IMG/VR virus record: IMGVR_UViG_3300029162_000080 | Origin: a virus | Lineage: Duplodnaviria; Heunggongvirae; Uroviricota; Caudoviricetes | Direction: 5' to 3' (one strand) | Length of the DNA: 23,008 nucleotides | In this document: positions 6,643 to 21,369 of the stretch, one piece after another | How positions within the stretch are numbered: the stretch's first letter is position 1 | How the letters are laid out: each line of letters starts with the position of its first letter | Notes under the pieces: model-generated | Told to the model about the DNA's origin: nothing | What the model saw: only the letters and a program-made list of their open reading frames with translations | The model's database searches: none | Position numbers and translations under genes: made by a program

Positions 6643-7002
6643 AGGGACCCCCACTGGGAGGACCCGACAGCCTGACAACCGTGACGAGCATCTGAAACAG
6701 AGCGTTACATAATGGCATGGGGATAATTCAGAAGGACATCACAGCATGCCCACACAAATTAGTGTGAGTGTCCTGTTTCTTACTACGCGCAGGACTGACG
6801 AGCATGAGGGGAAAATACGCGAACCGAAATGCCTTATCTTCAGAAATGCAGCCGGCATCCGAACTGGACGATATTGTAAATTCACCTAAATACGAGGCAT
6901 TGCTGTAGTTGAATTGCAGTACTGTATTAGCCTTACAGTGACAGAATACGATATTGACTCTGTCACTTGTGAAATGGTCAGAATGGTTAGCAGTTATGGT
7001 GA

Positions 7003-7209
7003 TCAGTCAACCACCAGGGAATAATCCTTCGTATTCTTATCGTGCTTTACTAACGCGGCCTCAATTGCCCTGAATGCTTCCAGAGATACTTGATGTTCTA
7101 TACATGCAATTACAACATCCGGGTAACCCATCGAAATGGTGCTATTAAGCATAGTTTTTACACGAACCTGCTCCTGGGAGGGGGCATCAGTGTATTGATC
7201 TTTATGCAT
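7003..7209 (-). CDS. Hypothetical small phage protein (possibly YnfO/YbcW-like by position)
   Basis: 68-aa ORF between terminase and gnsB; assignment by synteny with K-12 Qin/DLP12 only. Start may be the internal Met ([10 protein letters not shown]…). Confidence 0.4.
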
Positions 7210-7504
7210 TTTGTCGCTCCATTCGTTTGCTCTTCACTTGCGGCTAAAAATATAACGTCAAATCACTCAGCATGAAAGAGTGAAAGTTTCAGCGCGTTTC
7301 CCTTACATAATCTGTCGTTTGTATTCTCTTCAGGCATACCGGAAAGACTAGGTATTGTCACACAACCAATACCATCGACAATCGAGATTTATATCTATTC
7401 GGTAATGTTTAAATATAACAAAACCCCGTAAAAACGAGGTTTATGGGTAATTTGTATTGTTGAATAGCATCTGATGAGAAATTGATGCTAATACTATAAA
7501 CATG

Positions 7505-7678
7505 CTAGATTAAATCAATCTTGATATCATAGCTTTCAAGACCAGTCATTTTTTCCCGTGCAGTAAACTGGATACTGGTAACTTCTTTCCCGGTCTTTTT
7601 CTTAAGCTCAATGATTTTTTTTGTTATATATTCAGAAATATCTGCTTCTGCTTTTGTTTTTAACTCTTCAATGTTCAT
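7505..7678 (-). CDS. gnsB: GnsA/GnsB family protein (57 aa)
   Basis: Translation MNIEELKTKAEADISEYITKKIIELKKKTGKEVTSIQFTAREKMTGLESYDIKIDLI matches the GnsA/GnsB family from memory. GAGGAA Shine-Dalgarno directly upstream of the ATG at 7678; the ORF-track start at 7771 is probably too early. Confidence 0.8.
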   Translation of the reverse strand: MNIEELKTKAEADISEYITKKIIELKKKTGKEVTSIQFTAREKMTGLESYDIKIDLI

Positions 7679-7850
7679 CATTTCCTCTTTTAGTCTGTTA
7701 TGACTGTCCTGGTACACAGTAGTGTCAATTATATGGAGCAAACGTATAAAAGATAAGATGAAACATCGCAATAATCAACATACGACGGTCTAAATTTCAC
7801 ACAAACAGATAAAGATGATTATCATTTATTATCAATGCATTAGAATCAAA

Positions 7851-8081
7851 TCAATTCAAGAGTCTCATTGCTGCTTCCAGAATTTCTTCTGAAGTTACAT
7901 GTCGATCCGCTGCTACATAAATGACTTTATGATCTCCGGTCAGAGATGGAAACCCTGCAGCCATTACAGTGAGGTGTGTTGTTTCGCCATTTGGATATTC
8001 ACGCATGATGGTGTTAACTCCGGTCATCACTGGCACTACCATTGCTGGTTCAGAGTTAAAAAAAACTATTATTTTTTTCAT
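7851..8081 (-). CDS. Hypothetical protein (76 aa; occupies the ynfN position)
   Basis: ORF between gnsB and cspI. Start taken at MKKIIVFF…; no family recognised. Confidence 0.4.
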   Translation of the reverse strand: MKKIIVFFNSEPAMVVPVMTGVNTIMREYPNGETTHLTVMAAGFPSLTGDHKVIYVAADRHVTSEEILEAAMRLLN

Positions 8082-8352
8082 AATGTTACCGTAATATGTG
8101 AGTATCCATCGACTAGACACTAAGCAAAAAAGCTCCCGAAGGAGCCTTCATTTTCACTTTCTTAAATCTAACGACAGATGGCTAACATTTAAGTATTGTG
8201 AAATATTATCAAATGTAATCATCATTGATTTACAAAAGATACATTTTGCCCCGAAAGGATTTCTGTCAGAAACATCAAAAGATGATGTTCTATACTGAGA
8301 ACCATGGCAACACGGGCATCTAAAGTGAATATGGTTTGTAATATTTTCTACC

Positions 8353-8565
8353 TCAAAGTGCCACTACATGAACAGCTGCAGGGCCTTTAGGTCCGTTCTC
8401 AATACCAAATTCGACTTCCTGATTCTCAGTTAACGTTTTGAAATCGTTGCTCTGAATAGCTGAGAAATGCACAAACACATCTTTGCTACCATCTTTCGGC
8501 GTGATGAAACCAAAACCTTTTTCAGGGTTAAACCATTTCACTAAACCAGTCATTTTGTTAGACAT
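8353..8565 (-). CDS. cspI: Cold shock protein, CspA family (CspI-like)
   Basis: [70 protein letters not shown], with RNP1-like KGFGFI and RNP2-like VFVHF motifs. Long AT-rich 5' leader upstream, as in csp genes. Confidence 0.9.
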
Positions 8566-8928
8566 CATTATTACCTTTTGAAGAAGTTAGCCCTTGGGCA
8601 GAATGGTCCGAAAAAAAATATCAGAGAGAAAAACCAACAAGGAAATCTCAAGAGGTACAAATAATAAAATTATAACAATGACTGCTTCAGATAATTTTGT
8701 AACAAACCAGAACACCATTAACGCATGATTAACCAACCATAGCAAGGATTACTTTTGTAAAGAAAAACACACGAATGAAACAATAGCTTTATTTATTAAT
8801 AAAACGTGTCATTCTGTCTAATGACCTTTTATCTTACCCTTAAGATTTCAAGGATTTTGACTCATGGAAGAGTCCTTTTTATTTAAATTTCACATTCAGC
8901 GCTAAAAATAATCCGATTTAATATTAAT

Positions 8929-9435
8929 CTACATCTGATATTTTTTATCTCTTAAAGATTCATAAATCCGTTGACAAGTCACTCCTGCGATGTAGCGTTT
9001 GTCAGCAATTTCAGCAATTTCAGCATAAAGCTGAGCTTCTGCTGCAATATCTCCGAGCATGTTGGTGAGCATTCCTTCGGCGGCTTTGGTTGTTTTGCCT
9101 CTGACGGCAGCGGCAAGATTTGCGGTATGCTGCGCTGCGTCAAGGCGTATGGCATATTTTGTTGCTTCGGCACGCAGCTGGTTAACACTATCAGACAGAT
9201 CAGCAGCCCTGGCAGAAATTTCAGCGGCTTTCTGTTGTGCATCTTTAACAGCCTCATCACGGGATATACTTCGCCCCTGTTCAATTATTCGAGCAGCAAA
9301 TTGGACATTTACCTCTTGAGATAATTCGGCAGCATCACGCTCCGCCCATTTTTTTTGCCATCCTCTGTCGCTCCAGACATTACCTACGACAAATCCTACC
9401 AACACGAGCAAAATCACCGTGAATATCTGATTCAC
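8929..9435 (-). CDS. Spanin inner-membrane subunit (Rz-like i-spanin)
   Basis: 168 aa with N-terminal TM ([15 protein letters not shown]) and a coiled-coil-rich periplasmic part. Directly downstream of the endolysin with a 4-nt overlap; contains an embedded +1-frame lipoprotein ORF. Confidence 0.85.
8979..9257 (-). CDS. Spanin outer-membrane lipoprotein subunit (Rz1-like o-spanin), embedded in Rz
   Basis: Alternate-frame ORF wholly inside Rz. Signal peptide with lipobox (…[11 protein letters not shown]) followed by a Pro-rich mature region. Start ambiguous (ATG at 9257 or 9242). Confidence 0.7.
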
Positions 9436-10493: not shown

Positions 10494-10712
10494 ATCCTCA
10501 CCCCGATGTACACGGATGGTGCAATATGTTTGAAAAGATCGGAGTCTACGGGGTAGTTTTGACAGCACACGCTGTTCTCAACGGCGCTAAAGAAACATAC
10601 ACATTAAAAATGTGAGTAATTATTTTGAAAGAAAGTCATATATAAAATAATAATACGAGAAATGTTTTCATATTTAGTGTACTGTATACGGCCATTTATA
10701 CAGGAAAAGCCT

Positions 10713-10883
10713 ATGTCAGAACGTAAAGACTCAAAATCACGCCGTAATTATCTCGTTAAATGTTCCTGCCCAAACTGCACCCAAGAGTCAGAACACAGTT
10801 TTTCAAGAGTACAAAAAGGTGCCCTTTTGATCTGCCCTCATTGCAACAAAGTATTCCAGACAAATCTTAAAGCTGTAGCCTGA
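10713..10883 (+). CDS. Small zinc-ribbon protein (hypothetical, 56 aa)
   Basis: Two CxxC pairs (CSCPNC … CPHCNK). AGGA about 9 nt upstream of the ATG at 10713. Oriented against the late operon (moron-like) and followed by a hairpin. Confidence 0.45.
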   Translation: MSERKDSKSRRNYLVKCSCPNCTQESEHSFSRVQKGALLICPHCNKVFQTNLKAVA

Positions 10884-10930
10884 TTGATTTTATTAGTAAC
10901 AAGTATTTTTTATATTTTAATAATATATTT

Positions 10931-10955
10931 AAAGCAGATAATAAAAAACCCGCCT
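10931..10955 (-). terminator. Rho-independent terminator (minus-strand reading; hairpin usable from both strands)
   Basis: Stem AAACCCGC / GCGGGTTT with loop CTGA; on the minus strand it is followed by TTTTTTAT. Confidence 0.6.
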
Positions 10956-11246
10956 GAGCGGGTTTGAGATTGTGGTGCTTTTTGTGGGAGTCATCCACTT
11001 ACGCACTTTGTTTTGCCATGCCAGCAGTTAGCTTCTGCTGTAAAACTATTCATGCAGCAAACCTGCACTTCACCACAATGGTTAGCATACTTTTCCTGAT
11101 TAAGATTTTGCCAAATATGCTGGCCATTGTTTCATGTATTGGACCTCCTTAATTTTTATTAAAGAAATCCAATATTCACTACTCTGTCCGTATCTCTACT
11201 CAGGCATCAGCCTTCTTCGTTATCGTATACAGACGAGCGATGAATT

Positions 11247-11462
11247 TTAATCAGTAATGATGACATTTGCTGCTGCAGGACCTTTAGCACCACTCTCTAT
11301 AGAGAAGGTAACCTTTTGACCTTCAAATAAGGTTCGATAATTATCATTCTGAATCGCAGAAAAATGCACAAACACATCTTTACTACCATCAACAGGAGAA
11401 ATAAAGCCGAAACCTTTATCAGCGTTAAACCATTTTACTAAACCAGTCATTTTATTTGACAT
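11247..11462 (-). CDS. cspB: Cold shock protein, CspA family (CspB-like)
   Basis: [71 protein letters not shown]; divergent from the adjacent cspF-like gene, as in K-12 Qin. Confidence 0.9.
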
Positions 11463-11762
11463 TCTACATTCCTTAACTTGAGCCTTTCGGCATAAATGGT
11501 TTGCATAACAGAAACGACTTCGTACTTAATTGGAGAGACTCAAAGAAGGAATAAGTGAATAACACCTGAAATGAGAACTGCTTTAGTAAACTACTTCGTA
11601 TATCGTCTGTTCTTCAAACCGACGCAATCATTAACGCATAGTTGAACATATGAAGCAATGTTTATTTTAGACATCCAGCCATCTTCAACCCCATCAAAAA
11701 ACTATAGCTTTCTTCAGGAACGTGTGTATAGTGCGCCAAGTTATCAGTATTAAGGAATTTTT

Positions 11763-11975
11763 TTGTCCCGTAAAATGACAGGAATTGTCAAAACCTTTGA
11801 CGGCAAAAGCGGCAAGGGTCTTATCACCCCATCCGATGGTCGTATCGATGTCCAGCTTCATGTTTCAGCGCTCAATCTCCGCGATGCAGAAGAAATTACC
11901 ACCGGATTACGCGTGGAATTTTGCCGGATAAATGGTCTGCGTGGCCCTTCAGCTGCCAATGTTTACCTTTCATGA
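11763..11975 (+). CDS. cspF: Cold shock protein homolog, divergent CspF/CspH type
   Basis: [70 protein letters not shown]. The annotated start is a TTG; an in-frame ATG follows at 11775. Confidence 0.85.
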
Positions 11976-12266
11976 GCTATATTAAAGCTTTAATTTCAGG
12001 CCCCATCGGATCACACATGGAGAGTTTTTATGAATAACCCCGTCTGTCTTGATGACTGGTTGATTGGCTTTAAAAGCTTATGCTGTACTTTGGCCGTAAT
12101 AGCTCTGCTAATAATATAATAAGCAGACTCATTGTGTTTAGGGACATTGTACTGGAAGAAAACATTTTAAACATCAGGCAAATAACCAAGTCACCAGCTA
12201 AATAATAAGTTAACAGACATGAGTCCCGGGATGAGATTCAACATTACCATTGCCCCATTTAAAGCA

Positions 12267-14661: not shown

Positions 14662-14817
14662 TTACTCCTCAGGTTCGTAAGCTGTGAAGACAGCGACCTC
14701 CGTCTGGCCGGTTCGGATTCGTACCTCGCAGAGGTCTTTCCTCGTTACCAGTGCCGTCACTATGACGGTTAAACAGATGACGATCAGGGCGATTAACATC
14801 GCCTTTTGCTGCTTCAT
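14662..14817 (-). CDS. hokD: Hok-family type I toxin (HokD/RelF-like, 51 aa)
   Basis: MKQQKAMLIALIVICLTVIVTALVTRKDLCEVRIRTGQTEVAVFTAYEPEE matches HokD from memory: single TM helix followed by the conserved Hok periplasmic tail. Confidence 0.85.
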   Translation of the reverse strand: MKQQKAMLIALIVICLTVIVTALVTRKDLCEVRIRTGQTEVAVFTAYEPEE

Positions 14818-15856
14818 AGCCTGCTTCTCCTTGCCTTTCGGCACGTAAGAGGCTAACCTAGATTTGCCGTTCATAGATTGAGCCTCAGATTAATGTTAAG
14901 CGTCTTGCAGGACGCGTAATGTTAACTGGGGCTTTTCTCTATCTGCCTTTGGTGTTCATGCCTGAGACAGATAGCCTCAAGCACCCGCAGCCATTCTACT
15001 TAACTCCCGTTACCTCGCCAATATGAAATCAGTCAGAAAGGCGATCCATAAGAACAACAGCAAGGCAATAAATTGCCATTACAGCAGCAATAGCCAGCGC
15101 ACATTTGAGAACCAGCACCACAACCTCCTGTATTGGACGTACACCAGTCCTGATAAATATGAGGCTGTCTCGTCAGTGATTCAATACAACTATTGGGTAT
15201 AGTTTCTGTGATTTTGTTCTGTAGAAATGGAACATAATAACCTGTCACCACCAGCACTTCTTTAAATACGCCAAGTCCGACGCAAGCTAACCTTCTAGCC
15301 CGCTTTGAGCGAAGAACGGACTGAGTAATTCAGGCCGTTAGCGACACTATGACATCATTAGCAACCAACTAGGAGTTGGTAATAGATGAGTTAATTAATT
15401 GATTAAAAACCGACGATTTTACTAGATTACGGGAAGAAGAAAGGCCGCTGGTACGGCCTCCCAGAGACTAGTCTATTGTTATGCTTAGAAACGCTTTTCT
15501 ATCTCTTTTTCTCTTTCGTTTATTGCATCGTCAATGATTTTTTTTTGCTGAATTAATTTGTGGTGTTTTTTCTGGTAATACATCTTCAAGATCTTTGGCA
15601 ATTTTCTTTAATTTATCGATTTCTTTAGTTAAATCAGTTACAGATTTATCCGCTATTGACTTTGTCATTTTTCTATATTCCATTCAATTTATTTATCAAT
15701 CAGTTACCCGTAAACCTTATCATGGATTCCAATTATCGACAGCTGGGATTTTTACTTTCTTGATCTGCCCCAGGCGAATGACATATCCCCATTAACCAAT
15801 GTCCGCTCCTAGCACTTAGTAGACATTAATAGATTGTAAGCGTTCCCGTCATGTAG

Positions 15857-16237
15857 CGGTCACCGATTGGTGATGAATTGAAGCGGATCATTGATGAAAG
15901 TCGCAATAACGTGGCCAGCCCATTTATCGTTCACCAGATCCCGGAACGGCAGGTTAAACGCAGCAAAGAAGTTTCTCATCCCACTCAAGTTGCACCAGAC
16001 TATTTGAGTCGGTCGTTTTCAGCTACGCGTGACAAGCTGGGTTTATATGACAAACGGCCGATGGATGAAAGGCCAACCTTTCACGAAATTCGCGCCTTAG
16101 CAGCACATCTTTTTGATCAGCAGGGCATCGATCCACAAGGACGAATGGCACACAGCGATGCGAAATCAACTAAAATCTACACGCAAAACCATATCGACTG
16201 GGTTGTAGTTCCACATGGAGAAATTAAAGCCAGCTAG
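15857..16237 (+). pseudogene. Tyrosine integrase 3' fragment (C-terminal ~125 codons only; intK-like remnant)
   Basis: The frame opens immediately after a stop codon and aligns with the lambda Int C-terminus (…TFHEIRALAAHLFDQQGIDP…AHSDAKSTKIYTQ… versus lambda …TFHELRSLSARLYEKQ…GHKSDTMASQY…). No N-terminal or central catalytic domain upstream. Confidence 0.7.
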
Positions 16238-16342
16238 CACCAAGTAAGGCATAGAATTTTATTAACCAAGGAGCATATGACCAGTAATTAATTCTTACCG
16301 GAAAGTTAGCCCTGCTAAAATTAATATTAACAAATAAAAAAA

Positions 16343-16375
16343 TAGGGGCAAATATTTATATTTGCCCTCGCAACA
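16343..16375 (-). terminator. Rho-independent terminator ending the nucleotidyltransferase/2-TM operon
   Basis: Stem GGGCAAATA / TATTTGCCC immediately after the TAA stop at 16379-16381, followed on the minus strand by CTATTTTTTTATT. Confidence 0.7.
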
Positions 16376-16378
16376 TAT

Positions 16379-16960
16379 TTATCTTCTTTTCAGTTCCTTG
16401 GGAAGAAAAGCATCTATTTCTTCTTCAGAAAATGTTAAATCTTCTTTGTTTTTTAATGCGTCCTGTGCTTTTTTATAAGCTTCAAATGTTGTACTAGGAG
16501 AGCCTGAATACACTGAATGTAAACTCTCGAGTAACGAATCCCGCTCTGACTGCAATTGCTCGATTGGTTTTTCACCCATTGCTAAGTCTGTAAGCAATGA
16601 TAAATACTTTTCTCGGATTAACCAGATCTCATTTGCAGCCTGCTTATGTTTTTGCGCCAACTCACCAAGGTCATAATCTTTGGTATAAGCGTTAAGAATG
16701 AGAAGCAGTGTTGATACAACAATCCCAACCCCCGTGCCTACTTCACCCGCGCCGAAAAAAGTTGCTAGAAAGCCTCCAGTAGTTAAGGCGGAGAGAATTA
16801 TTTGCCAAAACTTTATAGAAGATAGTCGAGATAGGAGAATGTCTGAGCATTTTTCATGCGTCTTATGTGAGTAAACGACCCGACCATAACACTCTCTGAT
16901 CTGCCCTTCTAAAACCCTTCTAGATTCAGGTGTATCCTTAGTCTGGAAATGTTGATCCAT
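16379..16960 (-). CDS. Two-TM membrane protein, SLATT-like predicted effector (about 193 aa)
   Basis: Two adjacent hydrophobic helices (IKFWQIILSALTTGGFLATFF and GTGVGIVVSTLLLILNAY) followed by a charged helical C-terminal region. Start taken at the ATG at 16960 with a GGAG Shine-Dalgarno; the longer ORF-track start is 17017. Overlaps the upstream nucleotidyltransferase gene, suggesting translational coupling. Confidence 0.6.
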   Translation of the reverse strand: MDQHFQTKDTPESRRVLEGQIRECYGRVVYSHKTHEKCSDILLSRLSSIKFWQIILSALTTGGFLATFFGAGEVGTGVGIVVSTLLLILNAYTKDYDLGELAQKHKQAANEIWLIREKYLSLLTDLAMGEKPIEQLQSERDSLLESLHSVYSGSPSTTFEAYKKAQDALKNKEDLTFSEEEIDAFLPKELKRR

Positions 16961-17819
16961 AAATCTCCCGCCATTTTTGCTTAGCCGACCATTCGCGTTT
17001 TGGGGTCGCCATTTCATGCTCTATAGCTTCGAGTGAAATGTTATAGCACCGTTTTGCTTTATATTGGAAAAGCCCTTTACCATAGACATACTGACCACTT
17101 CCTGGCGCTTTCCAATACTCCTTACTCGTATCTTGATCAGCCATCCATTTGAAGAAATCACGACTCATGAAATCGTAGTAAAGATACGACTTATCTCTAT
17201 GCGCCCAATTTTCAATGAATTGATACGCAAGCGTATCAATGAGTAAACCACTTATAGGTACATCCCATTTACGCTTCCAAGCTCTTGCCATTCTACAAAG
17301 TTGCACCAAATTGTTATTGGTAATATTATTTCTTAACCTCATTGCAGAAATTTCTGGCTTTGGATTTGTAATCCTCCAACGGCCACCACCGTTCGCATCA
17401 GGAAATGTGTAACTATCACTAACATTGAGGAAAGCTGGAACGACTTCAAATGTAATTCCATCATTGAACGGTACAAGGATCACTTGACCGTCACCTCTAA
17501 TACTAGTGGTAGCATAGGTTTTTTCAATAGATCTCTTAACCGCTTGAAGCAATGCTGACTGCCCATTTCCTAAGTAGCTATTGTATTTTTGATACTCGGA
17601 ATATGGTAGCTGAAAAATCATATCCAGATCGCTCAAGCCTTGCGTAGCTGTGTTCCGACCATATGATCCAACGTAGAGACTATGAGAAGTATCAGAACTG
17701 CTATCCCAAAAATCCGTATTTAAACGCTTCGTTATATTCCTATATCTAGTTGAAATTGTTCCACCATCTTTTACAGTAAGATTGGAGCAAAATCCGCAAA
17801 ACCACTCAGCTAAACCCAT
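16938..17819 (-). CDS. cGAS/DncV-like nucleotidyltransferase (CD-NTase / SMODS-type), about 293 aa
   Basis: Nucleotidyltransferase signature …YVGSYGRNTATQGLSDLDMIF… (GS-x11-DxD) with further acidic residues downstream (FNDGITFEVVP). AAGGAA Shine-Dalgarno before the ATG at 17819. AT-rich coding sequence relative to the flanking phage genes, by eye. Confidence 0.65.
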   Translation of the reverse strand: MGLAEWFCGFCSNLTVKDGGTISTRYRNITKRLNTDFWDSSSDTSHSLYVGSYGRNTATQGLSDLDMIFQLPYSEYQKYNSYLGNGQSALLQAVKRSIEKTYATTSIRGDGQVILVPFNDGITFEVVPAFLNVSDSYTFPDANGGGRWRITNPKPEISAMRLRNNITNNNLVQLCRMARAWKRKWDVPISGLLIDTLAYQFIENWAHRDKSYLYYDFMSRDFFKWMADQDTSKEYWKAPGSGQYVYGKGLFQYKAKRCYNISLEAIEHEMATPKREWSAKQKWREIYGSTFPD

Positions 17820-18173
17820 GCTCAATTCCTTTTCTAAAATCTAATGAAAAATTCAAGGGCGCATGTTCCATGCATCATTGATAACTTTTTTCAGTCAGCT
17901 AGAGCAACATAATTGATACTAACTAGCTGTTTCTTCAAGTGAGTAACCTACTTTAGCATCAAGGTATTATACCTACCAAGCATGGGGAGAAACCACCACT
18001 TAAGCCATTGAAGTATATAGAGCAGATTTTGTTGAAAAAGCACTGTTTGTTTATACATATGAATAGTGCTTTTAACCAGCAATAGCGCGGCTCTCAGCGT
18101 TTTACAAGCAGTGTCATGGGGTGTCGGGGATCGGAAGTTCAAATCCTCTCGTGCCGACCCAAAAGATTATATA

Positions 18174-18199
18174 AACCAGCCTGTTATTGCTGGTTTTTT
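18174..18199 (+). terminator. Rho-independent terminator on the plus strand with no annotated upstream plus-strand ORF
   Basis: Stem AACCAGC / GCTGGTT with an 8-nt loop, followed by TTTTTTA. Confidence 0.5.
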
Positions 18200-18386
18200 A
18201 TGCCTACCTTCCTGGTAGGGAAGCTATGGGGAATTACTGGGGAATCCCCCCTTTACCTGCTCCCATTAAACTAACATAGCACGATGTAAGCAACTTCCGC
18301 TTCTGGCACAAAGCGGACAACCACGCTAGCTCTACCCTGTGCCACAAAATGTCAATTTACATCTGAACTAATGCACTTTAATCTCG

Positions 18387-18849: not shown

Positions 18850-19716
18850 TTACCCCCTGAAGCCCGGTGGAATTTCGGTATCCGGTTCAGAAATATGATT
18901 CACACAACGCTGGTTGTTCGTACCGCTTACCGGGAGCAACCAGGGGTTTTCAAAATTCCGGTCCGGTCCAAAAAACGTCGTCGCTCGCTGAACAAATTCC
19001 GTTCCCGTTTTCCCGGTAGCCGCCAGGTATCTTGCGTAACGCCTCACACCATCCAGCATGGCCTCTGGTGGCACCCCCTCGCGTAATCTGGCCTTCCAGG
19101 CACTGAAAGCGGATTTCTTCGGGTTTGCCCCAGCACGCAACGGGTATTCCCGCCAGACCTGTTCGAACACATCCGGATAATCTACTCGCCCCACAGGCTG
19201 CCCGGTGTTTTCCGGGACTACCCGATCGGCTTCCCGCTGAATGGCGGAATCGGCTTCAGGCTGCTGCAGTTGGTGTGATTGCTCCGGCCTTGCGGTCATC
19301 ACCTGCTGCACAGCGCCCGAATCGGCTTTCAGCGCATACGCTGAATCGGCTTCCGGTGTCGTGCCTGCTGGCTGACCAGGATTGACGGTCTGAACATCCC
19401 CTGCCTGGTTCGTGGCGTTTTTTACGCCATGGACCATAGTGTTTTGATCTTCTTGATCTGTATCTTTATCTGTATCTTTATCTGTCGTGACTCGTCGTGA
19501 CATGTGCGTGACATTTCGTGACGCGCCGTGACAATCGCCATTTTGTTCCCGCTTTCTTTCCCTCTCTCGCTGCGCCCTCTTGCGCTCTGCAGGAGATTTT
19601 GCGGTTTGCGAAATATTGCCGTTGTCTTCTTTAAGCACCTGGCGTTTTTCCCATCCAGTGATTACGCTCTCTGGCCTGGTGATGTGGATGCCGGAAACAT
19701 TGACGGCAGCATCCAT
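18850..19716 (-). CDS. Hypothetical early-region protein; start uncertain (in-frame ATGs at 19716, 19503 and 19437)
   Basis: The C-terminal ~190 aa look protein-like (…FEQVWREYPLRAGANPKKSAFSAWKARLREGVPPEAML…). The N-terminal ~93 codons overlap the repeat array and the 5' part of the divergent plus-strand ORF, so the real start is probably internal. Confidence 0.45.
   Translation of the reverse strand: MDAAVNVSGIHITRPESVITGWEKRQVLKEDNGNISQTAKSPAERKRAQRERERKREQNGDCHGASRNVTHMSRRVTTDKDTDKDTDQEDQNTMVHGVKNATNQAGDVQTVNPGQPAGTTPEADSAYALKADSGAVQQVMTARPEQSHQLQQPEADSAIQREADRVVPENTGQPVGRVDYPDVFEQVWREYPLRAGANPKKSAFSAWKARLREGVPPEAMLDGVRRYARYLAATGKTGTEFVQRATTFFGPDRNFENPWLLPVSGTNNQRCVNHISEPDTEIPPGFRG
19459..19532. 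repeat. Direct-repeat array: two tandem 12-bp units (TGTATCTTTATC) followed by five CGTGAC hexamers phased at 10-11 bp
   Basis: CGTGAC starts at 19486, 19496, 19507, 19517 and 19527 (read directly from the sequence), preceded by TGTATCTTTATC at 19459-19470 and 19471-19482 and by two GATC sites. Confidence 0.8.
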
Positions 19717-21369
19717 CGCTGGGCAAAAAATGAAGTTATCGACAACGACCGCGAAGACTGGAAGCGTATCTCGGCATCAATGCGCAAACAGCCTGATGCC
19801 CTTCGCTACGACCGCCAGACTATTTTTGGCCTTGTCCGTGAACGTCCGATCGACATTCACAAAGACCCTGTGGCACTGAACAAATACATTACTGAATACC
19901 TGAATACAAAGGGCGTGTTTGAAGATGAAGGAACAAATCAGAGCGCAACTGATACTCTCTCGTCGCCAGTACCAGAAACTGATGCAGTGGAAACGGCAAT
20001 TCCAGACAACGAAAAAACCGAATGCAAAGTGGAAGTCGAACCATCTGTAGAACGTGAGGGGCCGTTCTACTTCCTCTTCACCGACAAGGATGGCGAAAAA
20101 TACGGTCGCGCAAACAAACTTTCTGGTCTGGATAAGGCGCTGTCTGCTGGGGCTACTGAAATCACGAAAGAAGAATATTTCGCCCGCAAAAACGGTACAT
20201 ACTCAGGTTCACAACAAAATACTGGTGCATCTGACACGACCGCACAACCAGGGTCAGTAAAAGTTACCGCTGACGAAGTAAACAAAATTATGCAGGCAGC
20301 CAATATCAGCCAGCCTGACGCCGATGAACTGCTTGCAGTATCACGTGGTGAATTTGTTGAAGGGATTAGCGACCCGAATGATCCGAAATGGGTTAAGGGG
20401 ATCCAGACCCGCGATTCTGTGAACCAGAACCAGCAAGAAACGGAACAGAACGACCAGAAAGCGGAACAAAACAGCCCAAATACGCAACAAAACGAGCCAG
20501 AAACGAAACAACCTGAACCAGTAGTGCAACAGGAACCGGAAAAGATCTGCACCGCCTGCGGTCATAGCGGTGGCGGCAACTGCCCTGATTGTGGTGCGGT
20601 GATGGGTGACGCAACATACCAGGAAATATTCGATGGAGAGAATCAGCCTGAAGTTCAGGAAAATGATCCGGAGGAAATGGAAGGCACTGCGCATCAGCAC
20701 AAGGAGAACACTGGCGGCAATCAGCATCATGCCAGCGATAGTAAAACTGGCGAGGCGTCAGATCCCTTAATTAAGGCGAACGGTCATCATAATCTCACAT
20801 CCACCAGCAGAGCGGGGATTCATCTGATGATCGACCTTGAAACCATGGGAAAAAATCCCGATGCCCCGATTATCTCAATAGGTGCAATATTTTTCGATCC
20901 GCAAACCGGAGATATGGGACCGGAATTTAGTAAGACTATCGATCTGGAAACTGCTGGCGGAGTCATTGATCGGGACACCATTAAATGGTGGCTTAAACAA
21001 TCACGCGAAGCGCAATCTGCCATTATGACCGATGAAATCCCGTTAGATGATGCACTGTTACAATTGCGGGAATTTATCGACGAAAACTCCGGTGAATTTT
21101 TTGTTCATGTCTGGGGAAATGGAGCCAACTTCGACAACACGATTTTGCGCCGTTCATACGAACGGCAGGGGATCCCCTGCCCGTGGCGTTACTACAACGA
21201 TCGCGATGTACGCACAATCGTTGAGCTGGGGAAAGCCATAGACTTCGATGCCAGAACGGCTATTCCATTCGAAGGTGAGCGCCATAATGCACTTGATGAC
21301 GCCCGTTACCAGGCAAAATACGTTTCAGTTATCTGGCAAAAACTGATCCCGAGTCAGGCTGATTCTTAA
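19528..21369 (+). CDS. Exonuclease-like protein: C-terminal DEDDh-type 3'-5' exonuclease domain, central C4 zinc ribbon, low-complexity Q/N/E-rich linker
   Basis: C-terminal motifs MIDLETMG (Exo I), HVWGNGANFDNTIL (Exo II) and ERHNALDDARYQAKY (Exo III, His-type). Zinc ribbon CTACGHSGGGNCPDCG. Directly upstream of xis-int in the same orientation, as for recombination genes in lambdoid pL operons. The ORF-track start at 19528 is a GTG inside the repeat array; the true start is probably further downstream (in-frame ATG at 19780). Confidence 0.6.
   Translation: MTIAILFPLSFPLSLRPLALCRRFCGLRNIAVVFFKHLAFFPSSDYALWPGDVDAGNIDGSIHRWAKNEVIDNDREDWKRISASMRKQPDALRYDRQTIFGLVRERPIDIHKDPVALNKYITEYLNTKGVFEDEGTNQSATDTLSSPVPETDAVETAIPDNEKTECKVEVEPSVEREGPFYFLFTDKDGEKYGRANKLSGLDKALSAGATEITKEEYFARKNGTYSGSQQNTGASDTTAQPGSVKVTADEVNKIMQAANISQPDADELLAVSRGEFVEGISDPNDPKWVKGIQTRDSVNQNQQETEQNDQKAEQNSPNTQQNEPETKQPEPVVQQEPEKICTACGHSGGGNCPDCGAVMGDATYQEIFDGENQPEVQENDPEEMEGTAHQHKENTGGNQHHASDSKTGEASDPLIKANGHHNLTSTSRAGIHLMIDLETMGKNPDAPIISIGAIFFDPQTGDMGPEFSKTIDLETAGGVIDRDTIKWWLKQSREAQSAIMTDEIPLDDALLQLREFIDENSGEFFVHVWGNGANFDNTILRRSYERQGIPCPWRYYNDRDVRTIVELGKAIDFDARTAIPFEGERHNALDDARYQAKYVSVIWQKLIPSQADS

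What the first reader, a model, noticed from the sequence alone, without database searches (positions are those of the whole stretch)
16343..17825. Candidate minimal CBASS-like anti-phage module: cGAS/DncV-like nucleotidyltransferase plus two-TM SLATT-like effector
Two overlapping minus-strand genes form a compact operon with its own terminator. The first product (about 293 aa) has the nucleotidyltransferase signature GSYGRNTATQGLSDLD (GS…DxD) in the form typical of cGAS/DncV-like CD-NTases (SMODS). The second (about 193 aa) has two adjacent TM helices and a helical C-terminus, the architecture of SLATT-type membrane effectors predicted to partner SMODS enzymes. There are no ubiquitin-like or HORMA accessory genes, so it would be a minimal (type I-like) arrangement: a nucleotide-second-messenger synthase that activates a membrane-disrupting effector to abort infection. 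The cassette is visibly more AT-rich than the flanking phage genes and lies in the early region of a cryptic prophage, a common location for defence morons. Identity rests on motif recognition only.
Basis: partly seen in the sequence, partly recalled or inferred. Interest (0 to 1): 0.85.

Follow-up and report, generated by a model that had tools for sequence, protein, structure and literature searches.

The report
Two-gene CBASS anti-phage operon in prophage
This is a real but already catalogued two-gene bacterial antiviral system: an enzyme predicted to make a nucleotide alarm signal, plus a small membrane protein predicted to kill the infected cell, carried inside a decayed E. coli prophage.

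Summary
The observation and the interpretation both hold. Two overlapping minus-strand genes encode a 293-aa SMODS/CD-NTase nucleotidyltransferase (17819..16938) and a 193-aa SLATT_4 membrane protein with two transmembrane (TM) helices (16960..16379). A hairpin plus T-run terminator follows them.

- **Family matches:** both proteins match their families over the full profile length. Pfam gives SMODS 2e-50 and SLATT_4 6e-74. PADLOC gives CBASS cyclase 5e-144 and 2TM effector 1e-84.
- **Catalytic residues:** G51-S52, D64/D66 and E125 are invariant in 20 close homologues (78-96% identical).
- **Pairing:** the pair, with the same 23-nt overlap, recurs in all 17 related loci examined, down to 59% identity. 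dN/dS is 0.02-0.14.
- **No accessory genes:** none are present, so this is a type I CBASS.
- **Location:** it lies in a 3-kb AT-rich insert (15322-18303) in a Qin-like cryptic prophage. The insert is a relic of another phage's end: an att core (tRNA-Pro fragment), the CBASS pair, and a truncated integrase.

It is not new. Identical proteins are in RefSeq with these domain names, on at least 1000 contigs and in 47 of 5426 complete E. coli genomes. Related type I CBASS operons with SLATT6 effectors have been shown to defend E. coli. The nucleotide product, the trigger, and how a SLATT_4 protein without a known sensor domain reads the signal remain unknown.

The parts
16938..17819 (-). cdn gene: 293-aa SMODS / cGAS-DncV-like nucleotidyltransferase (CD-NTase). 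Predicted catalytic residues G51-S52, D64, D66, E125. An alternative TTG start lies at 17825.
   Evidence: Pfam SMODS 2.1e-50 and PADLOC cyclase PDLC00786 4.7e-144, both full-length. 100% identical to RefSeq WP_000521772.1-type proteins seen on >=1000 contigs. Catalytic residues invariant in 20 homologues and aligned to the GS, DID and SVD motifs of P. aeruginosa CdnD.
16379..16960 (-). Effector gene: 193-aa SLATT_4 protein with a cytosolic N-terminal helix, a TM hairpin (about residues 51-70 and 73-92), and a cytosolic helical C-terminal region.
   Evidence: Pfam SLATT_4 6e-74 and PADLOC 2TM effector PDLC00696 1.4e-84. Hydropathy profile. All-helical AF2 model, pLDDT 74.5. Homologues are nearly all 193 aa.
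16938..16960 (-). 23-nt overlap of the two reading frames. A GGGAG Shine-Dalgarno sequence at 16969-16965 suggests translational coupling.
   Evidence: Read from the sequence. An overlap of the same length is conserved in Klebsiella, Citrobacter and environmental viral loci down to 59% protein identity.
16336..16367 (-). Intrinsic terminator of the operon: 9-bp stem, 4-nt loop, T-run.
   Evidence: Terminator scan and the sequence itself.
17827..17831 (-). AAGGA Shine-Dalgarno sequence, 7 nt upstream of the cyclase ATG.
   Evidence: Read from the sequence.
15322..18303 (.). 2982-bp AT-rich insert (40% GC) that replaces a 1.25-kb DUF5677 gene segment found in a related Qin-like prophage. This is the variable slot between hokD and the replication genes.
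   Evidence: Homology breakpoints against L002, NZ_LR882493.1. GC content.
15850..16237 (+). Truncated tyrosine integrase: only the C-terminal ~120 aa remain. It is a relic of the phage that originally carried the cassette.
   Evidence: Pfam Phage_integrase, profile positions 110-168 of 172 only. PGAP annotates it as a 'recombinase' pseudogene. Collinear with the 3' end of an intact 392-aa int gene in Klebsiella prophages.
18113..18200 (+). 3' 52 nt of a tRNA-Pro gene (18113-18164) followed by a terminator-like hairpin. Read as the att-site core of a tRNA-Pro-integrating phage.
   Evidence: 94% identity to annotated tRNA-Pro genes across E. coli genomes, with weaker matches extending to 18199. 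ARAGORN and Rfam find no complete tRNA. Collinear with the prophage edge in Klebsiella and Citrobacter.

Best explanation
This is a type I CBASS abortive-infection operon carried as a prophage moron.

Proposed mechanism (inferred by analogy): the 293-aa CD-NTase is made together with the membrane protein and stays quiescent until a phage infects the cell. It then uses its pol-beta-type active site (G51-S52, D64, D66, E125) to condense NTPs into a cyclic di- or tri-nucleotide. That signal binds the cytosolic helical parts of the SLATT_4 protein, which sits in the inner membrane through a two-helix hairpin, probably as an oligomer. The complex opens or rearranges into a pore or ion channel. The membrane potential collapses, and the cell dies or stops growing before the phage completes its cycle, which protects sibling cells and the resident prophage.

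Shown here: family membership of both proteins, intact catalytic residues, the TM hairpin, the conserved overlapping operon, purifying selection, absence of accessory genes, and the mobile-element context.

Inferred: signal synthesis, the identity of the signal, ligand gating, pore formation and the anti-phage phenotype.
For: - Full-length, high-scoring matches to Pfam SMODS and SLATT_4 and to PADLOC CBASS cyclase and 2TM-effector models.
- Nearest solved relatives by sequence are CD-NTases: CdnD at 2.3e-12, with EfCdnE and the cAAG synthase CdnD only marginal at E 0.14-0.15. Top Foldseek hits are CdnD, CdnC, CdnE, CdnG, DncV and cGAS.
- GS, DxD and the third acidic residue are invariant in 20 homologues and align to the CdnD active site.
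- Two adjacent hydrophobic helices flanked by helical cytosolic regions.
- The cyclase-SLATT_4 pair, with a 23-nt overlap in the four loci where it was measured, occurs in 17 of 17 related loci in Klebsiella, Citrobacter and uncultured viral contigs.
- dN/dS is 0.07-0.14 for the cyclase and 0.02-0.07 for the effector.
- No conserved third gene.
- The position between att and int of intact Klebsiella prophages is a classic moron slot.
- Literature: two-gene type I CBASS operons, including E. coli CdnF-SLATT6 pairs, give >=10,000-fold phage restriction in E. coli (10.1101/2023.05.21.541620). SLATT4 is listed among CBASS membrane effector classes (PMC12480259). The TM effector Cap14 is a cyclic-nucleotide-gated ion channel (PMC10402079).
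Against: - No experiment exists on this subfamily that I could find, and neither RefSeq accession appears in the searchable literature.
- The cyclase scores only 117 bits against NCBIfam CBASS_cyclase_b (cut-off 200), so it is not an equivalog of that curated model.
- The AF2 model of the cyclase is poor (pLDDT 56.5, TM about 0.3 to the hits), so structural support is weak.
- The effector has no recognisable nucleotide-sensor domain (no SAVED, STING or beta-barrel) and no solved structural relative. Ligand gating is therefore an assumption.
- No convincing promoter was found.
- The host prophage is decayed, with its immunity region deleted. Expression in this strain is unproven.
Confidence: 0.82

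Rival explanations
1. Inverse (guard-type) signalling, as in Panoptes. The cyclase would make its nucleotide constitutively, and the nucleotide would hold the SLATT_4 protein closed. Phage sponges or phosphodiesterases that deplete the signal would release the effector and kill the cell.
For: Type I systems have no known sensor or regulator genes, and the trigger is unknown. Some CD-NTases are constitutively active in vitro (PMC10402079). Inverse signalling with a small TM effector is documented for mCpol-2TM-beta systems (PMC12657218 and PMC12657230, listed). The effector lacks a canonical activating sensor domain.
Against: Panoptes uses a minimal Cas10-type polymerase, not a SMODS enzyme. 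The cyclase here falls into PADLOC CBASS cyclase models. Tested type I CBASS operons, including SLATT6 ones, were described as conventional CBASS.
Confidence: 0.07
2. A selfish stabilisation or exclusion module rather than an immune system. The SLATT_4 protein would be a membrane toxin and the nucleotidyltransferase its regulator, so that the pair mainly promotes retention of the mobile element. It lies beside hokD, another membrane toxin, in a slot that holds relBE in K-12.
For: The slot between hokD and the replication genes carries different cargo in related prophages: DUF5677 in L002 and relBE in K-12 (my own knowledge). The pair spreads widely by horizontal transfer, with 78-80% identity in Ignavibacteria, Brocadiaceae and other phyla.
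Against: The intact catalytic centre of a signal-synthesising family and its strict conservation fit an enzyme, not an antitoxin. The same architecture is experimentally anti-phage in related operons. Addiction and abortive infection are not mutually exclusive.
Confidence: 0.05
3. A silent relic: the genes are intact but not expressed in this decayed prophage, and contribute nothing to the host.
For: The prophage has lost its immunity region. The cassette is a fragment flanked by a truncated integrase and an att remnant. No promoter was recognised.
Against: Both ORFs are complete and 100% identical to proteins seen on >=1000 contigs. The Shine-Dalgarno sequences, the overlap and the terminator are intact. 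Strong purifying selection applies across the family, although near-identity within E. coli means that selection in this host is not itself demonstrated.
Confidence: 0.05

Closest known systems
Type I CBASS with SLATT-class effectors, e.g. E. coli EcCdnF04-SLATT6 and EcCdnF05-SLATT6 (Richmond-Buccola et al., bioRxiv 10.1101/2023.05.21.541620)
   Same: A two-gene operon of a CD-NTase plus a small SLATT-superfamily TM protein, with no accessory genes. It is found in E. coli, and related operons give strong broad defence.
   Different: The effector here is the SLATT_4 family (PF18186), not SLATT6. The CD-NTase clade could not be assigned: the nearest solved relatives are clade D, and no clade F structure was available for comparison. 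I found no experimental test of this exact subfamily.
SMODS-SLATT conflict systems predicted by Burroughs and Aravind (source of Pfam PF18144 and PF18186)
   Same: Exactly this domain pairing. Both proteins pass the Pfam gathering thresholds over the full profiles.
   Different: None in architecture. That work was purely computational, as is this one.
CdnB-Cap14 (Saf-2TM + SAVED), a 2',3'-cGAMP-gated chloride channel (PMC10402079), and Cap15 (2TM + beta-barrel)
   Same: Type I CBASS with a CD-NTase signal acting on a small inner-membrane effector. This is the probable functional analogy: nucleotide-gated channel or membrane disruption.
   Different: SLATT_4 has no SAVED or beta-barrel sensor. 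Pfam finds only SLATT, and the model is all-helical. The ligand-binding site must therefore lie in a helical cytosolic region with no characterised counterpart.
P. aeruginosa CdnD (PDB 6p8u/6p82) and the CdnD of a Cap9/Cap10 system (9ntn)
   Same: The best sequence and fold matches. The GS, DxD and third-carboxylate motifs align.
   Different: Similarity is remote (phmmer E 6.7e-09, profile E 2.3e-12; about 16% identity to 9ntn CdnD by Foldseek). As I recall, the P. aeruginosa enzyme works with HORMA/TRIP13-type regulators; the 9ntn CdnD was solved in complex with Cap9/Cap10. No such genes are present here.
Panoptes (mCpol + 2TM-beta) and Pycsar (PycC + PycTM)
   Same: A nucleotide-synthesising enzyme plus a small TM effector in a two-gene operon.
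   Different: The enzyme families differ (Cas10-palm polymerase and class III-type cyclase, respectively). The cyclase here is SMODS and hits only CBASS cyclase models in PADLOC.

Membership tests
CBASS, type I | Gene for a cGAS/DncV-like nucleotidyltransferase (SMODS/CD-NTase) | tested here: met
   Pfam SMODS E 2.1e-50, profile 1-164 of 164. PADLOC cyclase PDLC00786 E 4.7e-144, profile 1-292 of 293.
CBASS, type I | Intact catalytic motif: GS, [DE]x[DE] and a third acidic residue | tested here: met
   G51-S52, D64-L-D66 and E125 are invariant in 20 homologues. They align with GS, DID and SVD of P. aeruginosa CdnD.
CBASS, type I | Effector gene adjacent in the same operon | tested here: met
   23-nt overlap and a shared terminator. 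The pairing is conserved in 17 of 17 loci. PADLOC 2TM effector model E 1.4e-84.
CBASS, type I | No ancillary genes (Cap2/Cap3 E1-E2/JAB, HORMA/TRIP13, Cap9/Cap10-type) | tested here: met
   Neighbours are an integrase fragment, noncoding DNA and phage DUF977 and replication genes. No conserved third gene in the Klebsiella, Citrobacter or viral loci.
CBASS, type I | Synthesis of a cyclic oligonucleotide that activates the effector | not testable with these tools
   Needs enzymology with LC-MS and binding assays.
CBASS, type I | Protection against phage by abortive infection | not testable with these tools
   Needs phage challenge. Related type I operons do protect (10.1101/2023.05.21.541620).
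SLATT_4 (PF18186 / NF033632) | Profile match above the curated threshold | tested here: met
   247.7 bits against a cut-off of 27 (Pfam). 150.3 bits against a cut-off of 55 (NCBIfam).
SLATT_4 (PF18186 / NF033632) | Two-TM hairpin within a helical protein | tested here: met
   Hydropathy peaks centred at about residues 60-63 and 76-84. Helices 11-61 and 73-95 in the AF2 model.
SLATT_4 (PF18186 / NF033632) | Pore-forming or cell-suicide activity | not testable with these tools
   This is a prediction in the literature only. There is no solved SLATT structure in the PDB copy searched.
NCBIfam CBASS_cyclase_b equivalog (NF041117) | Score at or above the curated cut-off of 200 bits | tested here: not met
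   116.9 bits. It is related, but not a member of that curated equivalog.
CD-NTase clade D | Closest to clade D reference enzymes in a CD-NTase phylogeny | tested here: inconclusive
   The best solved relatives are CdnD enzymes. No reference set for all clades, notably F, was available, so no tree was built.
Cap14 / Cap15-type TM effectors | SAVED (Cap14) or beta-barrel (Cap15) nucleotide-sensor domain fused to the TM segment | tested here: not met
   The Pfam scan at E<=1 finds only SLATT_4 and SLATT_5. The model is entirely helical.

The most novel reading that the evidence does not exclude
The cytosolic helical region of SLATT_4 may be a previously undescribed kind of cyclic-oligonucleotide receptor that directly gates a minimal two-helix pore. 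The region is marked by residues conserved across 48 distant homologues: H105, R116, D125, R140, P155, Y162 and E181. The partner CD-NTase subfamily may also make a signal not yet characterised. The evidence does not exclude this, because the protein has no SAVED, STING or beta-barrel domain and no solved structural relative. This would be a property of the whole, already catalogued SLATT_4 CBASS family, not of this locus.
Probability: 0.35. Interest if true: 0.5.

Novelty: already known. Interest (0 to 1): 0.2.

Why it matters
For genome annotation the result is routine. PADLOC-type tools should call this type I CBASS, given the full-length PADLOC model matches, and RefSeq already names both domains.

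It is useful in two smaller ways. First, it gives a clean, natural E. coli example of the SLATT_4 branch of CBASS. That branch's product, trigger and effector mechanism are still uncharacterised, while membrane effectors are the largest CBASS effector class. Second, it shows how such cassettes travel. Here a piece of one phage's att-moron-int end, still carrying a tRNA-Pro att core and one third of its integrase, has been captured in a variable slot of an unrelated cryptic prophage.

Tried and rejected
- **Cyclase structure.** The alignment of 20 sequences is shallow (78-96% identity), and the model was poor (pLDDT 56.5). The Foldseek hits are all CD-NTases but at TM about 0.3, so I treat them as weak support only.
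- **Effector fold search.** Foldseek against the PDB returned only generic long-helix proteins at E > 0.1. The afdb50 library was unavailable.
- **Clade assignment.** Neither RefSeq accession appears in the searchable text, and no supplementary tables are held for the two relevant papers. The clade is left unassigned.
- **tRNA-like piece at 18113-18164.** I first suspected a complete tRNA or an sRNA. ARAGORN and Rfam found nothing. BLAST showed it is the 3' 52 nt of tRNA-Pro.
- **L20-leader Rfam hit** at 16334-16431 (E 0.82). Rejected as the operon terminator hairpin matching by chance.
- **Promoter.** The scan gave no more sites than shuffles, and none in the 5' region. By eye there is a perfect TATAAT at 17971-17966 (-) with a poor -35, which I do not claim as the promoter.
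- **Longer 212-aa form of the effector** (start at 17017). Rejected, because homologues are 193 aa and the 23-nt overlap geometry is conserved.
- **Retron/DRT-associated SLATT.** Rejected: only a weak hit (E 0.01) and no RT gene.
Full report

Yes. The six-frame ORF list shows two minus-strand ORFs. One is 16938..17825 (295 aa from a TTG; 293 aa from the ATG at 17819). The other is 16379..17017 (212 aa as the longest ORF; 193 aa from the ATG at 16960). RefSeq gene models in near-identical E. coli DNA use the 293-aa and 193-aa forms. Almost all homologues have exactly these lengths.

With those starts the genes overlap by 23 nt, and a GGGAG Shine-Dalgarno sequence lies 4 nt before the second ATG. 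An AAGGA lies 7 nt before the first ATG. A 9-bp-stem hairpin plus T-run (16367..16346, -) follows the second stop codon by 12 nt.

The motif GSYGRNTATQGLSDLD is at residues 51-66 of the 293-aa form. The second protein has two adjacent hydrophobic segments (about residues 51-70 and 73-92 by Kyte-Doolittle). Its predicted structure is entirely helical (pLDDT 74.5).

GC content is 39.9% across the finding, against 51.3% and 50.2% in the flanking phage genes. Other AT-rich stretches exist in the window.

**2. What is it?**

The first protein matches Pfam SMODS over the whole profile (E 2.1e-50). It matches a PADLOC CBASS 'oligonucleotide-cyclase' model end to end (E 4.7e-144). The second matches Pfam SLATT_4 over the whole profile (E 6e-74) and a PADLOC CBASS '2TM effector' model (E 1.4e-84). 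NCBIfam agrees for SLATT_4 (150 bits against a cut-off of 55). It gives only a sub-threshold match to its CBASS_cyclase_b equivalog (117 against 200 bits).

By sequence, the nearest solved structures are CD-NTases. P. aeruginosa CdnD (6p8u/6p82) scores E 6.7e-09 with the single sequence and 2.3e-12 with a family profile. Another CdnD follows at 2.1e-05, with only marginal hits to the cAAG synthase and EfCdnE (E 0.14-0.15).

In that alignment G51-S52, D64/D66 and E125 fall opposite the GS, DID and SVD motifs of CdnD. All are invariant in 20 homologues of 78-96% identity.

The AF2 model of the cyclase was poor (pLDDT 56.5). Its top Foldseek hits in the PDB are nevertheless exclusively CdnD, CdnC, CdnE, CdnG, DncV, CdnB and cGAS. 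I count this only as weak support.

The effector has no solved relative by sequence or by fold.

**3. Is the pairing meaningful?**

I examined 17 related loci:
- four Klebsiella loci (88% identical cyclase);
- two Citrobacter braakii-type loci (95%);
- eleven IMG/VR viral contigs (100% down to 59%).

In every one, the cyclase gene is immediately followed by a SLATT_4 gene. The 23-nt overlap has the same length in the four loci measured, down to the 59%-identity environmental contig (L016, TTG start). No third gene is shared among these contexts.

Pairwise dN/dS against the Klebsiella and Citrobacter copies is 0.07-0.14 for the cyclase and 0.02-0.07 for the effector.

The family is large and mobile:
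- 6854 cyclase and 4304 effector homologues at E<=1e-5 in the 90%-clustered database, with 78-80% identity even in proteins labelled Ignavibacteria or Brocadiaceae;
- 1252 SLATT_4 clusters at 50% identity.

Across 48 divergent SLATT_4 proteins, the best-conserved residues are cytosolic. They are H105, R116, D125, R140, P155, Y162 and E181, plus a YxHKTHEK-like motif in the consensus before TM1. I suggest these as a candidate ligand site. This is inference only.

**4. Surroundings**

The window is a Qin-like lambdoid cryptic prophage of E. coli. A close relative lies between ydfJ and rspB.

The cassette lies between hokD/DUF968/Q-antiterminator on one side and DUF977 and the replication initiator on the other. 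Compared with that relative, homology breaks at 15321/15322 and 18303/18304. A 2982-bp, 40% GC insert replaces a 1.25-kb DUF5677 gene segment.

Within the insert, 18205..15850 is collinear (80-82% nt identity) with the very edge of intact Klebsiella prophages. Their gene order is: host gene, ~225 bp of noncoding DNA, cyclase, SLATT_4, then an intact 392-aa integrase on the opposite strand, followed by a small ORF in the excisionase position. In the window only the last ~120 codons of that integrase remain (15850-16237).

The noncoding piece contains the 3' 52 nt of tRNA-Pro (18113-18164, 94% identical to annotated tRNA-Pro genes), followed by a terminator-like hairpin. ARAGORN and Rfam find no complete tRNA.

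The simplest reading is that the CBASS pair was a moron between att and int of a tRNA-Pro-integrating phage. A fragment of that phage end was then captured by recombination in the variable slot of the Qin-like prophage.

The same 1.8 kb occurs at >=99% identity in 47 of 5426 complete E. coli genomes, always chromosomal. It appears in at least two different lambdoid prophage backgrounds.

The prophage in the window is further decayed. A deletion joins the replication gene (N-terminal ~85 aa missing) to a truncated exonuclease gene at 19663/19664, removing the cI/cro-dicB region.

**5. How it most likely works**

Established knowledge of CBASS applies here, summarised in PMC10419184 and the primary work cited there. 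On infection the CD-NTase makes a cyclic oligonucleotide. The signal activates the co-encoded effector, and the cell dies or arrests before phage release.

Here the effector is a small inner-membrane protein. Both termini are predicted cytosolic, with a short GAGEVG periplasmic turn between the TM helices. The expected output is therefore membrane permeabilisation or ion leakage by an oligomer. Cap14 (a cGAMP-gated chloride channel, PMC10402079) and Cap15 provide the analogy.

Two-gene type I CBASS operons from E. coli with SLATT6 effectors give >=10,000-fold restriction across five phage families (10.1101/2023.05.21.541620). SLATT4 is listed as a CBASS membrane effector class (PMC12480259).

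Several things are not shown for this subfamily: the product, the trigger, ligand binding by a protein with no known sensor domain, and pore formation.

Rivals, each given 5-7% probability:
- inverse, Panoptes-like signalling;
- a mainly selfish addiction role;
- a silent relic.

**6. Comparison and novelty**

The system meets every computationally testable criterion of type I CBASS and of the SLATT_4 family. It is not a member of the NCBIfam CBASS_cyclase_b equivalog, and it is not a Cap14/Cap15-type effector.

The CD-NTase clade could not be assigned. Among solved structures the nearest are clade D, but no clade F structure or reference set was available. Type I operons with TM effectors mostly carry clade D, E or F enzymes.

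The system is already known:
- identical proteins are in RefSeq as 'SMODS domain-containing nucleotidyltransferase' and 'SLATT domain-containing protein';
- the PADLOC models match them end to end, which suggests that close relatives of this subfamily were in the model-building set.

I found no paper that tests this exact subfamily.

**7. Verdict**

The novelty rating is 'already known' and interest is low (0.2).

The residual interest lies in the uncharacterised SLATT_4 sensing and pore mechanism, which is a family-wide question, and in the cassette's travel history.

Noticed in passing
window 18113-18200 (+): The 3' 52 nt of a tRNA-Pro gene (94% identical to annotated E. coli tRNA-Pro), followed by a terminator-like hairpin (AACCAGC-CTGTTATT-GCTGGTT-TTTTT). 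It sits inside the prophage, about 300 bp upstream of the cyclase gene. I read it as the att core of the phage that originally carried the cassette. Similar ~100-140-bp pieces hit many Klebsiella plasmids and the end of Gifsy-2 at 77-87% identity.
   Followed up: partly
window 15850-16237 (+): A truncated tyrosine integrase with only the C-terminal ~120 aa. It is collinear with an intact 392-aa int gene next to the same CBASS pair in Klebsiella prophages L003-L006.
   Followed up: yes
window 15322-18303 versus L002 18876-20130: The slot between hokD and the DUF977/replication genes is variable among Qin-like prophages. It holds the CBASS insert here and a DUF5677 gene in NZ_LR882493.1. From my own knowledge, K-12 Qin has relBE upstream of hokD. 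This may be a cargo or defence hotspot of this prophage family.
   Followed up: partly
window 19663/19664: A deletion junction. The replication initiator ORF (18850..19716, -) lacks its first ~85 aa (phrog_3729 positions 86-356). It abuts an N-terminally truncated exonuclease gene (19528..21369, +). About 4.1 kb present in relatives is missing, covering the ydaT-like, cro/cI-like, ydfA-C, dicB and ydfD genes.
   Followed up: partly
window 14662-14874 (-): An intact hokD (Hok/Gef family membrane toxin, Pfam 3e-23) lies about 1.5 kb from the SLATT_4 gene, so two small membrane-toxin genes sit close together.
   Followed up: no
window 15531-15683 (-): A small Lys/Glu-rich ORF (50 aa here; a 60-aa hypothetical protein in RefSeq) lies inside the 3-kb insert. 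It has no Pfam or PHROG match.
   Followed up: no
L017 7464-7730 and L018 7487-7744 (+): In two environmental viral contigs (59% identical cyclase), an 85-88-aa gene (MNYLITYDLN...) directly follows the SLATT_4 gene on the same strand. It is absent from L016 and from the enterobacterial loci, and its function is unknown.
   Followed up: no
homologues P0100, P0106, P0192, P0198: Both proteins are 78-83% identical to copies labelled Brocadiaceae, Ignavibacteria, Sphingopyxis and Vicingaceae. This is unusually high conservation across phyla and implies recent, wide horizontal spread of the pair.
   Followed up: no
window 7000-9000 and 10500-12000: Other AT-rich stretches (31-39% GC) occur in the prophage. 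In the close relative they correspond to the cold-shock gene cluster (cspB, cspF, cspI and others) and to lysis-region morons. Low GC is therefore not specific to the CBASS insert.
   Followed up: no
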